64,000 bases of DNA from contig OZ024747.1 of the NCBI GenBank assembly GCA_964016885.1, forward strand, positions 84,196,001 to 84,260,000, read 5' to 3'. The translations under genes were made by a program, and so were the position numbers. Shown here piece by piece: positions 94 to 54,542 of this stretch. Numbering within the stretch: position 1 is the first letter of the stretch; the number at the start of each line of letters is the position of its first letter. The notes below the pieces were generated by a model. That model saw nothing but the letters and a program-made list of their open reading frames with translations, had not been told where the DNA came from and ran no database searches. The stretch comes from Eledone cirrhosa (taxonomy: Eukaryota).

Positions 94-225
94 AATATGG
101 TATGTATTTATAAATAAATATTTAGAAAACCGTTAGCTATGCAAAAACACCAACGGCTATCGCCACCTGACGTTTTTGCATAGCTACGGCTTTCTAAATG
201 TTTATTTATAAACATACCGTATTTC
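92..225. repeat. Imperfect inverted repeat (~55 bp arms), MITE- or fold-back-like
   Basis: gaaatatggtatgtatttataaataaatatttagaaaaccgttagctatgcaaaaac (92-148) is the near reverse complement of 172-225. Confidence 0.8.
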
Positions 226-652: not shown

Positions 653-716
653 CGCGCGCGCGCGCGCGCGTGCGTGTGTGTTCGTAATATATAATAAAAT
701 ACATATATTTATGTAA

Positions 717-766
<50 letters not shown>

Positions 767-768
<2 letters not shown>

Positions 769-1385
769 TGGCTGCCAACTCGTTTTCGAGTACAGCCACT
801 ACTTTATATCCATGTAGGAGAACTCCTACCAATGCGCTGAACGAGTGTGACTTTTTAGTCCAGCCAGCGACTTGAAAACTCTGGTACAAACACTACACTT
901 GTGACAATTACTGACACATAGTGCTGGGCCCATGATACCATGTGATGACAAGTGCAGAGAGATCTCCAGATATAAAAAAATGCCTGTGCCGTGAAGCTTT
1001 TATAGTGAGCAAAGGCACTGCACAAAGCCAGTCCCACTCTCTTAACCAAGATGATATTTACCAAAAAGAAGAACAAGTCAACATCATTGGATACCATCAG
1101 AGTTGCAGGTGTTATATCAGAGTTTTCCTTCTCCTAGAATTCTGCCTTGACAAAGGCTAAGGGGTCATCTCTCCCGGTGATTTTGGATGGCCATTGACTC
1201 TTAAGAGCTCCTTTGCCCTTTGACAGGTTTTGTTTTTAGTCCTGCAGGATGTCCAAAGTCACCCTCCTCACCAAGAAACCTTGGTGGGGTTGCCAGTTTA
1301 GTCGCCAACGACCCGACCATGAGACAGGTTGTACTAGGATACATGTTACCAGTAGCACCAACTGGTGACCTGACATATGGGAATG
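767..1385 (-). mobile_element. Non-autonomous, internally deleted RTE-type element (5' UTR-like part joined to 3' end)
   Basis: Minus 900-826 encodes KCSVCTRVFKSLAGLKSHTRSAHW*, a C2H2 finger like those ending RTE ORFs. It is followed by a 3' hairpin (768-799) and a (TA)n tail. The upstream part has the RTE 5' UTR-type motif ctaggagaaggaaaactctga. No RT or endonuclease lies between. Confidence 0.65.
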
Positions 1386-1389
1386 GTTC

Positions 1390-1649
1390 GTTTTCTAGGC
1401 GGGACGCCGCTCTGCGACCTGCGGATACCGCGCGCCATCCAGCCTGACGGGAACGGGTCGCGACGACGGATCGAAGGGGAAGTGCGTCCGATGCCGGCAC
1501 CCCGCGAATCGTAACGCCGGCGAGGCGGTCGGCGGTCGACTCGTCGAAACGAGAGACCGCCGCCGACGCGATCGCCGACGACGACGGCGCCTTAAAACAG
1601 CAGCGGACTGAGTCCCCTCGCGATCGCGGTGAACGGTCCTACCCGTTTA
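1390..1649 (-). rRNA. 28S rRNA D2 expansion-segment fragment (dispersed pseudogene piece)
   Basis: Very GC/CpG-rich island. The minus strand starts TAAACGGGT...GGGGACTCAG and contains GCACTTCCCC...CGTCGCGACCCGTT, both resembling conserved anchors of metazoan 28S D2. Confidence 0.75.
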
Positions 1650-1666
1650 TATATATATACATATAT

Positions 1667-1716
<50 letters not shown>

Positions 1717-1833
1717 TATATATATATATATAATATATATATATATCATATATTTACATGTATTTACATATATTTAAATGTATATATGTATATACATACA
1801 TATCATATCTATGTAACTAGGCCTAAATAGATA

Positions 1834-1835
<2 letters not shown>

Positions 1836-1864
<29 letters not shown>

Positions 1865-1894
1865 CATACATACATACATACATACATACATACA

Positions 1895-1924
<30 letters not shown>
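1836..1924. repeat. (CATA)n microsatellite
   Basis: Pure tetranucleotide run. Confidence 0.97.
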
Positions 1925-1925
<1 letters not shown>

Positions 1926-2870: not shown

Positions 2871-2983
2871 GCCATATCACGCTGAAAATAACCGGTTCTC
2901 GCCCGATAACCGAAGTTAAGCAACGTCGACCCTAGTTGGTACTTAGATGGGTGACCGCTTGGGAACCCTAGGGGATGGAAGCA
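2871..2983 (+). rRNA. 5S rRNA pseudogene (lacks first ~7 nt, several substitutions)
   Basis: gccatatcacgctgaa...ccggttctcgcccgataaccgaagttaagcaacgtcga...gtacttagatgggtgaccgcttgggaaccctagg follows the metazoan 5S consensus, including box A and box C. Confidence 0.92.
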
Positions 2984-2991
2984 TTTACTTA

Positions 2992-3177
2992 ACGGTGGAT
3001 TGGCAGTCTCGTTAGAGGGTCGGACGCCATGCTTTGCAGCAAAGAGTTACAGCCCTTTATGGTCTGAGTTCAAATCCCGTCGGGGTTTACTTTGCCTTTC
3101 ATCCTTACAGGGTCGATAAAATAAAGTACCAGTAATACACTGGGATAATTGCTAGCCTTGTGCCAAAAAGTAGAAAT
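2992..3177 (+). mobile_element. tRNA-derived SINE (family A), full length
   Basis: A-box-like tggcagtctcgttag, B box gagttcaaatccc, central tttgcctttcatcc...ggtcgataaaataaagtaccagt, tail ccttgtgccaaaaagtagaaa; about 35 related copies in the window. Confidence 0.92.
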
Positions 3178-3609: not shown

Positions 3610-3694
3610 GGTGACGCGCGTTTCGCCACTGATCAGCTCAAGGTTCGATCTGTATCGATCTATCCCAACTCTGTAATCCGGGGCTCGTCAGACC
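3610..3694 (-). ncRNA. Type I hammerhead ribozyme motif (PLE-like island)
   Basis: Minus strand: GGT CTGACGA GCC..(long loop)..GGC GAAA CGCGCG TC ACC, followed by aataaa. All three stems and the core are present. Confidence 0.8.
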
Positions 3695-3730
3695 CCGGGT
3701 GAACCTACAGTAACTCCAAGTTACACTCCT

Positions 3731-3778
<48 letters not shown>

Positions 3779-3788
3779 AGGAGTGTAA

Positions 3789-3830
3789 CTGATGATTTCT
3801 AAAGAATGAAACAGTTCTAGTCCTGTAGAA
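3789..3830 (+). ncRNA. Hammerhead core, 5'-truncated (same family as 29994-30038)
   Basis: CTGATGA tttctaaagaat GAAA CAG ttctagtc CTG TA GAA; the stem I 5' strand is missing. Confidence 0.55.
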
Positions 3831-3845
3831 TCTCATCTATATTAA

Positions 3846-3986
<141 letters not shown>

Positions 3987-5114
3987 CTTCTCTGGAAATA
4001 TTCGGACATGTTCAGACCTGGAAAAACATGGGCTCCACCAGATTTTAAAATATCCAAGGTCACGCTGTATGTTACTACGGTTCCCCAACGACACTATCGA
4101 GGGTTAACGATCCTTACATACATACATTCATACACACATACATACACACATGCACATAGACGTACAAACACACAGATGTATACATACATTACATATATTA
4201 CATACATGTATTTCCTGCTTCCCATATTCCATCCAAACCCTCTCAGTTTTGTAACTTATCTAAACTATAATAAAGCAAGGTCTGCGGGACTGCGTACGGT
4301 TTACTTTTTTTTATCCCGTTAGTAAAATAAGTTGGATTACTTTGAATAAATAATGAATGAATATTACATAATTTATCTACTAAATTTCGTAAACAAAAAT
4401 AATTTAGTAAAAATAAATAATTTATAATTGACTTCTTTATAAAGTTGCACTTCCGGTATATCGTTGCCACCACCACCACCACCTCCACTTCAACTATCAT
4501 ATATATATAGAAAGAGAGAGTGTGTGATGTCAACACTTCCGGTGGCGATCACTTAAATAAACATACTAATTTTCTGTCACTAATTTTCTCCTAATGTAGT
4601 TTATATATAATATCGTCTTTTTTTTAATGTATCATGGATTACGTTACTGATTACATAAGACAGTGTAACAACGTCTTCGTTCAATTTCTGTTTATATTGT
4701 CAATTACGATTTTATTTGATGTATCATATCATATCTACATGTATATATACTTGCGTATAATATCAATATACACACTATACATGCTAGCAGAAAACCTCCC
4801 GAAGGGTTATTTTTCTGCTAGTCTTCATAATGTCCCACATCCATCATGATTGCGGCAATAATAAAGAGATTATTATTATCAATAGTTTATCCTCTTTGTT
4901 CCTCTAATTCATTCTTGTCTTTGTTGTTGTTGTTGTTATAAATATGATGCGTGACAGTTTTGTTTATGTTTTTGCTTGTTTTGTTTTTCCCTCTCAACTA
5001 CTTTGTGTTCTTTCGTTTCCTTTGTTTTTGTTTTTTTTTAGTTCATAGTTTTACATAGTTTTAAGTGAGCTTATAGATAGATATTTTATACCTTCTCTCT
5101 CTCTCGCTCGCTCC

Positions 5115-5585: not shown

Positions 5586-6213
5586 CAGAATCGGTATAGC
5601 GTCAGACCAAATGCTTCACGGCATAAAATTATGGCCCTTTAAGTTCTGATTTCAAATCCTGTCGAGGTTAGCTTTGCTTTTCATCGTTAAGTGGTTGATA
5701 AAATAAAGTACCAGTAATGCATTAGAGTCGATTTAATCGACTTTCTCCTTCCATTCAAATTATTGACCTTGTGCCAAAAGTAGAAGCAACTATTATTAAC
5801 ATTATAGGGTGGTAGGTTGGCAGTGTCAGTAGAACCTCGGACAAAATGTTTTACGGCATCTAAATGAGGTCGATAAAATAAAGTTCCAGTTAAGTACTAG
5901 AATCGATTTAATCGACTATTCCCCCACCACCACCACTTCAAATTGGTGACCTTGTGTCAGATGTCGAAACAACTATTATATAAGGTGGTGGATTGGTAGA
6001 ATCGTTAGAACATCAGACAAATGCTTAGCATTATTTGTTCCGGTTCTCTACTTTCTGAGTTCAAATCCCACCAACGTCAATTTTGCCTTTCCCCCCTCCG
6101 TGGTCGATAAAATAAAGTACCAGTAAAATACTGGGTTTGATATTGTTGAGCTTTCCTTCCCCTCAAAATTACTGATAATGCCTCTAAATAAGAAACTATT
6201 GTTATTATTATCA
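5586..6213 (+). mobile_element. Three head-to-tail SINE A copies
   Basis: Head, central domain and tail repeat at ~5586, ~5808 and ~5983, separated by attatt tails. Confidence 0.88.
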
Positions 6214-51384: not shown

Positions 51385-51727
51385 ACATCATCACCGTTTT
51401 ACGTCCGTTCTTCCACGCTAGCATGGGTTAGACGGGTTGTCCTGTTGTGGGCAGTAGCCGGTCGGCTGACCATGTCTTGCTCATACGGGAACTGATTCTG
51501 GCTTGATTTCTACAGCTGGATGCCCTTCCTAACACTAACCTCATTTACAGTGAGTGTTGGGTGTTTTTTGCCGTGGCACCTACACGTCCACTTTACAGTG
51601 TGGGCTGGGTGCTTTTTCGATGTGGCACCTCCACGACCACTTTGCAGTGGGAGGGGGTGGGGGTATACTGCCTATATGCTTCAGCTTGTACCCGTGGGAA
51701 ATCGGGTCTTCTGTATTACTGCGTGAC
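51385..51727 (-). mobile_element. RTE LINE 3' end
   Basis: Diverged reverse-complement homolog of 54225-54540. Confidence 0.9.
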
Positions 51728-51756
51728 GTGTATGTGTACATATGTGTTTATGTGTG

Positions 51757-54542
51757 TGCAAGAGTATGTTTGTGTATACGATATGTAACACAAACTTCAA
51801 AAAACCCGACAACCACCTGATCACCTATAGATCAAGGGAGCATTCTAGTCAGATAGATTTTATCCTCATCAGGGGACGTGACAGATGGACAGTCGTAAAC
51901 ACAAAAGCCTTCCCTAGTGAGGAATGTACATCCCAACATAGCTTAGTTGTCAGCGACCTCACAGTCAGAACTAGACGAACCTGGAAACAGAGGCCAACCT
52001 GGAGAAGAAAGATCTGGAAGCTGAAAGACCCCTCAACCAGTAACAGATTTAAAGATATTTTACTCAACGCCTACGATAGTAAAGAAGAACAGATAGAGAC
52101 ATTCAATGTAGAAGAGAACTGGGAGTTCCTAAAAAATAACTTACTAGAGGCGACGGATGAGGTCTGTGGCTGGAGTAAGACCACAAGCAGGAGGAGAGTG
52201 ACTTGGTGGTGGAACAATAAGGTAGATGAGGCAGTTAAGGCCAAGAGACAGGCATGGAAAGAATGGAAGAACGGGGGGAGCAGGGTACATTACATAGAGA
52301 CCAAGAGGGAAGCTAGGCGACAAGTATACTTAGCTAGGAGGGAAGCAGAGGATAGAAAATTCAAGCATGTTTTGCAACGTGAGGACCAGAAACAGGAGGT
52401 GTTCAAGATTGCGAGGCAGTGTGTCAGAGAGAATTGTGATGTCATTGGAGAGAAGTGTATCCGGAATGATAAAGGTGAGCTTGCCCTCACAAGTGCTGAG
52501 AAGAAAGATGCATGGAAGAGTCATTATGATAAATTACTAAATGAGGGGAATGCATGGGAAGAAGAGACCCTACCCCAAGTAGACCCTATAGAGGGGCCAG
52601 CAGTACAAGTCAGCAGCGGCGTAGTAAGTAAGGCAATCAAAGATATGAAGATGGGGAAGGCAACCGGTCCATCGGATATAGCTGCCGAGATGCTGAAGGC
52701 ATCTGGGTCTGTAGGTCACACTATAACCACACATATTGTTAACCAGGTAATACTAGGTGTCATATCAAAAGATTGGTGCAGTAGCATCATTGTCAACTGC
52801 TACAAAGGTAAAGGTGATGCACTAGATAGAGGAAACTATAGAGGTATAAAGCTGATGGACCAGGTCATGAAAGCAACAGAAAGAGTTATAGCACAGTTGA
52901 TTAGGGACCAGGTGAAACTAGACGAGATGCAATTTGGGTTTGTACAAGGAAGAGGCACCACTGATGCCCTCTTCCTTGTCAGGCAGTTACAGGAAAAGTA
53001 CCTAGCTAAAAGTAAGCCACTCTACCTGGCATTCGTCGACCTTGAGAAAGCCTTTGACAGAGTTCCACGTGCTGTAATCTGGTGGGCTCTTAGAAAACTA
53101 GGAGTAGATTAATGGCTTGTGAAAGCGGTACAAGCCATGTATAGGGGAGCAGTCAGCAAAGTTACGATTAGCAATGAGTATAGCGAGGAATTTAGCATAC
53201 AGGTTGGGGTCCACCAGGGCTCTGTTCTTAGCCCCCTCCTGTTCATCATAGTCCTGCAGGCAATAACGGAGGAGTGTAAGACCGGATGCCCATGGGAACT
53301 CCTGTATGCTGATGACCTTGCACTTATAGCTGAATCTATGGTAGAACTAGAGAAGAAATTCCAAACTTGGAAGCAGGGACTAGAAAGAAAGGGTCTCAAA
53401 GTCAACATGACAAAGACTAAGGTCCTTGTAAGTAGACGAGAAAACAGAACCCAGATCCCCTCAGGGAAATGGCCTTGCTCAGTATGTAGGAAATGTGTAG
53501 GTAGGAACTCCATTCTCTGCCCCAAATGCAAACAATGGGTACACAAGAGATGTAGCGGGATCTCAGGAAGCTTAATTAAGAATGTAGGCTTCACATGCAG
53601 CAGCTGTGCTGGGACAGCAAGCAGCAAACAGCCACAGGAAACAAGTACCACCAATCTCTGGGAGGGCTCTGTAGAAACAGTAGACAGCTTCTGCTACCTA
53701 GGTGACGGAATTAGCAGCGGAGGTGGGTGTTCAGAAAGTACAATAACTAGGGTAAGAACGGGATGGAAGAAGTTTAGGGAACTACTACCACTGCTAGCTG
53801 CAAAAGGCTTCTCCCTCAAAATGAAAGGCAAACTGTATGATGCGTGTATCCGAACAGCGATGTTGCATGGTAGTGAGACCTGGGCGTTGAAGGTGGAAGA
53901 CTTACGTAGATTAGAGAGAAACGAAGCCTGCATGCTCCGATGGATGTGTAATAGTAATATGCGCGAATAACAAAGCATAAATGAATTGAGAGAGAGACTG
54001 AGCATAAGAGGAATCAAATGCTGTGTGCAGGAGAGGCGGTTGCGTTGGAATGGACATGTGCTGCGTATGAAGGATGACAGCTGCATAAAAAGGTGCAGAG
54101 CACTAGAAGTCGATGGAAACCACGGAGTGGGGAGACCCAAGATGACCTGGGATGAGGTGATAAAAGCCGACCTTACCCAATTACACCTCTCAAAGGCGAT
54201 GACACACGACCGTGACCTCTGGCATCACGCAGTAATACAGAGTACCCGACCTCCCATGGGTACAAGCTGAAGCATATAGACAATATGCCCCCACACCCTC
54301 CACTGCAAAAAAGCACCCAGCCCACACTGTAAAGTGGATGTGTAGGCGCCACGAAAAAGCACCCTGCACTCACTGTAAATGAGGTTGGTGTTAGGAAGGG
54401 CATCCAGCTGTAGAAATCAAGCCAAATCAGTTCCTGTATGAGCAAGACATGGTCAGTCGACCAGACACTGCCCACAACAGGACAACCCGTCTAACTCATG
54501 CTAGCGTAGAAGAACGGACATAAAACGATGATGATGATGATG
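51757..54542 (+). mobile_element. 5'-truncated RTE-clade LINE: end of APE endonuclease, RT, PHD-type finger; two in-frame stops
   Basis: One reading frame to 54270 interrupted by TAA at 53110 and 53968. Motifs SQIDFIL, NYRGIKL, AFVDLEKAFDRVP, GVHQGSVLSPLLF and LLYADD (YADD at 53305), (GAT)n tail. Confidence 0.96.

What the first reader, a model, noticed from the sequence alone, without database searches (positions are those of the whole stretch)
767..1649. 28S rRNA-headed, internally deleted RTE element: candidate new SINE type
Seen: the minus strand reads (TA)n, then ~260 bp of GC-rich 28S D2-like sequence, an RTE 5' UTR-like block, the RTE terminal C2H2 finger with stop, a 3' hairpin and (TA)n, with no intervening host-like DNA. 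Known: RTE-mobilised SINEs often have bipartite bodies (LINE 5' UTR plus 3' end), and 28S-derived heads are rare. Inference: this is either a propagating 28S-headed SINE or a single template-switch chimera between rRNA and a non-autonomous RTE.
Basis: partly seen in the sequence, partly recalled or inferred. Interest (0 to 1): 0.8.

Follow-up and report, generated by a model that had tools for sequence, protein, structure and literature searches.

The report
Ribosomal RNA fragment repeatedly captured
At 26 or more places in this genome the same short piece of 28S ribosomal RNA is fused at the same point to the front of a common jumping element; these fusions likely arose separately rather than from one new SINE, and they likely record an undescribed, precisely cut rRNA fragment.

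Summary
The anatomy is real. A 271-nt 28S D2 piece (one difference from an rDNA unit in 259 nt compared) is joined by one extra base to a 611-nt RTE-like bipartite element that is itself a headless family (8,426 exact 5' ends). At least 26 loci on 12 contigs share the junction, so this is no one-off. It does not behave like a propagating SINE either. The bodies of 7 young chimeras fall in separate subfamilies shared with headless copies (monophyly rejected, p=0.0045). The junction base varies. Heads follow rDNA through an old and a current sequence state. The same piece also heads an older, different element. All 18 long heads start within 29 nt, none runs further upstream, and all 26 end at one hairpin-loop edge. 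Best reading: repeated template jumps (or RNA ligation) onto a discrete ~270-nt rRNA fragment, akin to human 28S/L1 and U6/L1 chimeras. Natural rRNA ends tested as controls (5.8S, hidden break, H88) gave no fusion to this body, so the selectivity is unexplained. The fragment has not been seen as RNA.

The parts
1650..1925 (.). 5' flank: TA/TATG microsatellite target
   Evidence: TRF array 1648-1925; head begins directly after it
1379..1649 (-). 28S rRNA D2 (ES7L) 5' piece, 28S nt ~442-712, sense orientation, current rDNA state; ends at the 3' edge of a hairpin loop
   Evidence: 99% to L097:480-750 within the Rfam LSU match; 1 substitution in 259 nt compared; loop position from folding
1378..1378 (-). 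single untemplated A at the junction
   Evidence: rDNA continues with G; the base is A in 6, T in 1, absent in 1 of 8 young chimeras
767..1377 (-). 611-nt bipartite non-autonomous RTE-like element, a high-copy headless family; this copy is in subfamily alpha
   Evidence: 2,731 candidates, best 98-99%; 8,426 exact 5' 20-mers, control 0; subfamily
979..1377 (-). 5'-UTR-like half; 979-1183 aligns to a LINE 5' UTR, 1184-1377 has no autonomous match here but is shared with an older bipartite family
   Evidence: 68-70% to the UTR of L236-L243; older family 75-85%
826..903 (-). terminal C2H2-like finger coding remnant with stop
   Evidence: Pfam zf-C2H2 E=6e-5, below cut-off; 75-83% DNA match to the last finger of the full-length LINE
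768..799 (-). 3' terminal hairpin (tail)
   Evidence: fold -19.5 kcal/mol; 83% to the tail of RT-encoding copies
687..766 (.). 3' flank / tail: (AT)n
   Evidence: TRF

Best explanation
This locus is one of at least 26 fusions of the same 28S D2 piece to RTE-like non-autonomous elements, likely made independently when the reverse transcriptase finished copying the element and jumped onto the free 3' end of a predicted discrete ~270-nt rRNA fragment. Shown: shared junction, fixed 5' limit, polyphyletic bodies, heads matching rDNA of two ages. Inferred steps: (1) an RTE protein binds the element's 3' hairpin and primes at a TA/TATG microsatellite; (2) it copies the 611-nt RNA to its 5' end; (3) in roughly 0.3% of full-length insertions it jumps end-to-end to an rRNA fragment cut at the loop at 28S nt ~712; (4) it copies to that fragment's 5' end at nt ~442 and joins the target, or jumps again; (5) the products have no promoter and are dead ends. 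Recurrent origin as such I put near 0.83; the jump rather than ligation route is the less certain part.
For: 19 of the 40 scored places span the junction; add 7 more (26 loci, 12 contigs). Three multi-site body subfamilies each hold young chimeras and headless copies. The AU test rejects one clade for 7 young chimeras among 109 rows (p=0.0045, dlnL 94.8). The window body differs by 6 nt from its nearest headless copies but by 11-20 from other young chimeras. No body variant is shared by more than 6 of 20 chimeras. Old-type head letters recur in a chimera with a different junction (L268), in two with an older body family (L132, L269) and, for one of three sites, in two rDNA-like copies (L010, L134), so they read as an earlier rDNA state. 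18 of 26 heads start at L097 477-505 and none upstream. L065 carries a second rRNA piece joined exactly at 480. Among 52 body 5' ends with GC-rich upstream DNA, 14 are joined to inverted body, 3 to same-strand body, 1 to telomeric repeat and 11 to rRNA, which fits a jump-prone RT. 8,426 headless 5' ends meet Kojima's criterion for a sum of chimeras (PMC4494074, section 19).
Against: The fragment was not seen as RNA: only assembled contigs were on offer and they were uninformative. Positive controls failed. 0 of 20 fetched dispersed copies around the H88 break, 0 of 20 (of 290 candidates) before the hidden break and 0 of 17 dispersed 5.8S copies are fused to this body, so a jump to any abundant end does not explain the selectivity. 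Variants private to two or more chimeras number 8 against 4.0 expected (P=0.083), so a little secondary copying is not excluded. The body tree is star-like and its bootstrap had not settled. Recombination among body RNAs could also scramble it. The exact autonomous partner was not found. TSDs cannot be read in the microsatellite flanks.
Confidence: 0.55

Rival explanations
1. Independent chimeras made at RNA level: an endonuclease cuts the D2 loop leaving a 2',3'-cyclic phosphate, an RtcB-type ligase joins it to a 5'-OH on the element RNA, and the joined RNA is then retrotransposed, as shown for U6/L1.
For: Explains why one cut site is favoured while 5.8S and the two known breaks are not. The cut lies at a loop edge after a pyrimidine. 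Sense orientation throughout. Double pieces (L065) could be serial ligation. Precedent in PMC6789731 (passages).
Against: Needs a 5'-OH on the full-length element RNA. Rfam found no ribozyme in the body and I saw no canonical HDV-like fold by eye in an alignment with 8 older relatives. The variable extra base fits a polymerase jump or a tailed 3'-OH end better.
Confidence: 0.28
2. A low-copy 28S-headed SINE propagating from one or two chimeric masters, with heads refreshed by rDNA and bodies exchanged with headless copies.
For: One junction at 26 loci. 13 older copies share head letters. Slight, non-significant excess of chimera-private variants.
Against: Monophyly rejected. Junction base varies. 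The shared letters also occur outside the junction class. The same head sits on another family (L132, L269). No exact Pol III A or B box; the one-mismatch A-like site lies 3' of the B-like sites.
Confidence: 0.09
3. Copies of the element inserted into rDNA units at this loop are co-transcribed by Pol I, processed at nt ~442 and retrotransposed as head plus body.
For: Would give a fixed junction and heads that track rDNA. rDNA is collapsed in assemblies, so such units could be hidden.
Against: Requires many separate insertions at a non-microsatellite site by an element whose 40 unselected copies sit almost all in TA/TATG repeats. No hit spanning the junction continues upstream into the 28S core. 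It still needs a cut at nt ~442.
Confidence: 0.07
4. A single one-off chimera.
For: None beyond the single window.
Against: 26 loci with unrelated flanks.
Confidence: 0.01

Closest known systems
[quoted passage not shown]
   Same: Sense-oriented 28S fragment fused 5' of a retroelement; similar number (18) and median size (269 nt); recurring start position; ascribed to ligation or template switch.
   Different: Here the partner is a full-length non-autonomous RTE-like element, the piece is D2 rather than nt ~3,636-4,115, and the 3' junction is fixed to within about a base at 26 loci across two rDNA sequence states.
U6/L1, U6/L2 and U6/RTE chimeric retrocopies (PMC6789731, PMC4476161, passages read)
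   Same: Recurrent independent fusions with a fixed RNA 3' end that mimic a family.
   Different: U6 is a mature RNA with a known end; here the end is internal to 28S and no such RNA is on record in my searches.
Bipartite RTE-derived elements and SINEs such as Bov-A/Bov-tA, RTESINE, WALLSI (PMC5786205, parts 1-2 of 5 read)
   Same: Body of LINE 5' UTR plus 3' end; heads get added to such bodies.
   Different: Those headed forms propagate and carry tRNA or 5S promoters; here about 0.3% of copies have the head and form no lineage.
SINE28 (PMC4994717, passages read)
   Same: 28S-derived dispersed copies, said to be frequently re-derived from rRNA.
   Different: SINE28 comes from the 3' end of 28S with A-rich tails and reported Pol III transcription; no LINE-derived body.
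Known 28S breaks: protostome hidden break, octopus H88 break, yeast ES7L stress cleavage (PMC6925239, PMC13321053, PMC6912279, passages read)
   Same: Site-specific rRNA cleavage; yeast ES7L is the same segment by my knowledge of the naming.
   Different: The passages I read report no D2 break in octopus; the two known breaks gave no fusion to this body in my samples.

Membership tests
SINE (propagating, RNA-headed) | Multiple dispersed copies with the same composite structure | tested here: met
   26 loci, 12 contigs
SINE (propagating, RNA-headed) | Copies descend from master copies that carry the head | tested here: not met
   AU p=0.0045 for 7 young chimeras; subfamilies shared with headless copies; old class not AU-tested
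SINE (propagating, RNA-headed) | Headed form is the unit, not a small minority beside a headless partner (criterion in PMC4494074 section 19) | tested here: not met
   24 headed with this body against 8,426 exact 5' ends
SINE (propagating, RNA-headed) | Internal Pol III promoter in the head | tested here: not met
   no exact A or B box, near matches in wrong order; consensus recalled
SINE (propagating, RNA-headed) | Transcription of the composite unit | tested here: inconclusive
   no contig spanned the junction in 4 runs laid; no raw reads offered
SINE28 | [quoted passage not shown] | tested here: not met
   head is nt ~442-712 of a 6.3-kb 28S
RNA/retroelement chimeric retrocopy | Cellular RNA piece in sense at the 5' end of a retroelement, independent origins | tested here: met
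RNA/retroelement chimeric retrocopy | One TSD around the whole unit | tested here: inconclusive
   flanks are microsatellite on both sides; only low-complexity matches
Bipartite non-autonomous RTE derivative (body) | 5' part from a LINE 5' UTR, 3' part from a LINE 3' end | tested here: met
   68-70% UTR, 75-83% finger, 83% tail to a single-ORF APE-RT-finger LINE of 1,135-1,243 aa frames
Bipartite non-autonomous RTE derivative (body) | Partner LINE placed in the RTE clade by RT phylogeny | not tested
   label rests on architecture, which resembles octopus RTE-2_OV (PMC9115989 passages), and on recalled motifs; exact partner not found
HDV-like ribozyme-bearing RTE 5' end | Nested double pseudoknot at the 5' end | tested here: inconclusive
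   no Rfam hit; no canonical fold seen by eye; no descriptor search run

The most novel reading that the evidence does not exclude
Octopus 28S rRNA carries a further, undescribed pair of precise cuts that release a ~270-nt ES7L fragment in the germline, conserved in position while the loop sequence changed, and RTE chimeras are a fossil map of those cuts and the raw material from which rRNA-headed SINEs can be born.
Probability: 0.3. Interest if true: 0.75.

Novelty: new variant of a known kind. Interest (0 to 1): 0.52.

Why it matters
It shows that a shared junction at many loci is not enough to call a SINE family, and gives a clean case where that test misleads. It also turns genome sequence into a nucleotide-level prediction about rRNA processing: ends at 28S nt ~442 and ~712, with minor ends further along D2. 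That is testable in one Northern or RACE experiment, in an animal group whose rRNA breaks are of current interest. The old and new heads also date a turnover of the rDNA sequence.

Tried and rejected
Rfam on the window did not detect the head; identity came from the genome's own rDNA. A protein search with the 57-aa terminal frame found nothing. 40 unselected 5'-intact places on C1 held no autonomous partner; the LINE found via L021 is only a relative. PDB hits for that LINE were L1 ORF2 and R2 only, not diagnostic. Sequencing runs were contigs only; four laid runs gave no junction-spanning record and no usable ancestral rDNA letters, which is no evidence of absence. TSD search was defeated by microsatellites. 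A 5' ribozyme was considered and not supported. Controls at H88, the hidden break, 5.8S and an 18S site found no further fusion to this body. Four of the 55 pattern matches were chance matches in other repeats. Rows left out of the tree: L041, L049, L054 (rearranged or truncated body), L050 and L112 (gaps), L132 and L269 (other family), L270 (fetched later). Two look-ups of earlier scan findings returned nothing. Paper searches for a prior report found none for cephalopods; Repbase and Dfam could not be searched, so the body family may already be catalogued, and no supplements were read.

Full report
Observation. On the minus strand the element runs from 1649 to 767 between TA-type microsatellites. 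The window lies on contig C7 of a 3.0-Gb genome. I fetched an rDNA unit from C25; Rfam places 18S, 5.8S and a 6.3-kb 28S in it. The head (1379-1649) equals L097:480-750, 28S nt ~442-712, with 1 substitution in 259 nt compared. The 28S carries the TATG/CGTC motif that PMC13321053 gives as specific to incirrate octopuses (part 1 of 6 and passages read), so the host is likely such an octopus.

The body is its own family. Window 767-1377 has 2,731 candidates, the best 40 at 98-100% and, apart from the window itself, starting at the same point. Its first 20 nt occur exactly 8,426 times, control 0. 40 unselected places on C1 were all headless, most about 611 nt, almost all in TA/TATG repeats. Body nt 195-399 are 68-70% identical to the 5' UTR of a full-length single-ORF LINE in 6 of 10 loci fetched; the finger remnant and tail also match. 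That ORF has endonuclease and RT domains. This is a relative, not the exact partner. The RTE label rests on architecture, as in RTE-2_OV (PMC9115989, passages), not on a tree.

The junction recurs. Of 40 scored places for a junction query, 19 span it, with unrelated flanks. A pattern for GC-preceded body starts (95 matches) added L067, L084, L099, L114; L132 came; L269 and L270. That gives 26 loci on 12 contigs, a lower bound: 24 with this body and 2 with an older bipartite family. Of the 55 matches of a head 19-mer (control 1), 18 are rDNA-unit-like, 4 chance, 25 this junction, 5 the body at other D2 junctions, 1 another LINE and 2 bodiless.

Both ends are fixed. The 3' end lies at the 3' edge of a 4-5-nt hairpin loop, in young and old copies alike although the loop sequence differs. 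18 of 26 heads start at L097 477-505 and none further upstream; the stop rate seen between 750 and 506 would end about 4% of heads in such a window. Chimeras with other 3' ends also start there (L065 at 480, L112/L113 at 483). L065 has a second 28S piece (5808-5925) joined exactly at 480. Minor ends occur at ~829-833 (L065; L267/L268, one duplicated locus), 1048-1049 (L112/L113, duplicated; L228) and 1085 (L229); L228 and L229 both start at 880-881.

One lineage or many. Young heads match present rDNA; 13 older ones share other letters. Those letters also occur in L268 (different junction), L132 and L269 (different body family) and, at one of three sites, in L010 and L134; the bodiless L264 shares the neighbouring old letters. 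They therefore read as an earlier rDNA state. In the body, the window copy shares a seven-site haplotype with headless copies; L037 and L084 share a nine-site one with headless L103 and L143; L038 belongs to a third group. In a tree of 109 bodies the 7 young chimeras are scattered, and holding them together is rejected (p-AU 0.0045). The group was defined by junction and head, though I had seen haplotype tables before the test. 20 of the headless rows were chosen for likeness to the window copy, which favours its own nearest-neighbour result but not the other two groups. The junction base is A, T or absent. Kojima's criterion (PMC4494074, section 19 read) says that many headless partners point to a sum of chimeras; that is the case here.

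Against my reading. Chimera-private shared variants are 8 against 4.0 expected (P=0.083). The tree is star-like, and recombination between body RNAs could mimic polyphyly. The predicted fragment was not observed as RNA. Controls for natural ends failed: no fetched copy around H88 (20 of 44 candidates) ends at the break or carries the body; 0 of 20 fetched of 290 candidates before the hidden break carry it, though 13 end at 2250-2291; 0 of 17 dispersed 5.8S copies carry it, one carries a 78% relative. So the D2 loop end is strongly preferred, and abundance alone does not explain that.

Mechanism. I commit to an end-to-end template jump during target-primed reverse transcription (0.55), because the body's 5' end is often joined to other templates, the junction base varies, double captures exist, and RTE-type elements are reported to form U6 chimeras this way (PMC4476161, passages). 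RtcB-type ligation (0.28; PMC6789731, passages) explains the selectivity better but needs a 5'-OH for which I found no source. Either way a discrete rRNA fragment is implied. Site-specific ES7L cleavage is known in stressed yeast (PMC6912279, passages).

Verdict. Not a new SINE type. It works like the human 28S/L1 chimeras (PMC13174262, passages: 18 loci, median 269 nt), but with a non-autonomous RTE-like partner, a junction fixed to about one base, and a record across two rDNA states. My paper searches found no report of this in cephalopods; repeat databases and supplements were not seen. New variant of a known kind, interest 0.52.

Noticed in passing
window 2872-3165 (+): 5S rRNA-like sequence (Rfam 64.7 bits) followed directly by what looks by eye like a tRNA-SINE body; possibly another RNA-headed chimera or a SINE3-type element.
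   Followed up: no
L275-L282: Dispersed 5.8S copies end repeatedly at nt ~143-148; in L276, L277, L278 and L279 a tRNA-SINE-like head follows within about 10-25 nt. May be a second recurrent rRNA chimera class.
   Followed up: partly
L097:2090-2290 query; L295-L314: 290 candidates genome-wide just 5' of the hidden-break region, against 33-60 for most other rRNA queries; 13 of 20 fetched end at 2250-2291, short and without tails.
   Followed up: partly
L115, L118 (18S, L096 ..6071); L104 (28S ..6102): Short rRNA heads of 13-18 nt on the same body; two share one 18S end. Three longer 18S copies fetched there had no body.
   Followed up: partly
L266: 28S 687-807 fused to a 5'-truncated RT fragment of another LINE in an (AAT)n flank.
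   Followed up: partly
L121; L086 (C3:127.74 Mb); 14 loci: Body 5' ends joined to a telomeric repeat, a tandem array of the first 75 nt, or inverted body sequence ending repeatedly near body nt 213-219.
   Followed up: partly
L230-L235 (C28:124.7-125.5 Mb); L131: A tandem array of roughly 35-kb units each holding 28S 734-942 followed by a short repeat; L131 has the same 3' junction with a longer 28S piece.
   Followed up: no
L097:39-6385; L096:5373-8232: Unusually long rRNAs, 28S about 6.3 kb and 18S about 2.9 kb.
   Followed up: no
window 106-213 and 3716-3792: Inverted-repeat structures, the second around a (TA)n core.
   Followed up: no
window 51727-53967 (+): LINE RT frames, the second followed by a PHD finger.
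   Followed up: no
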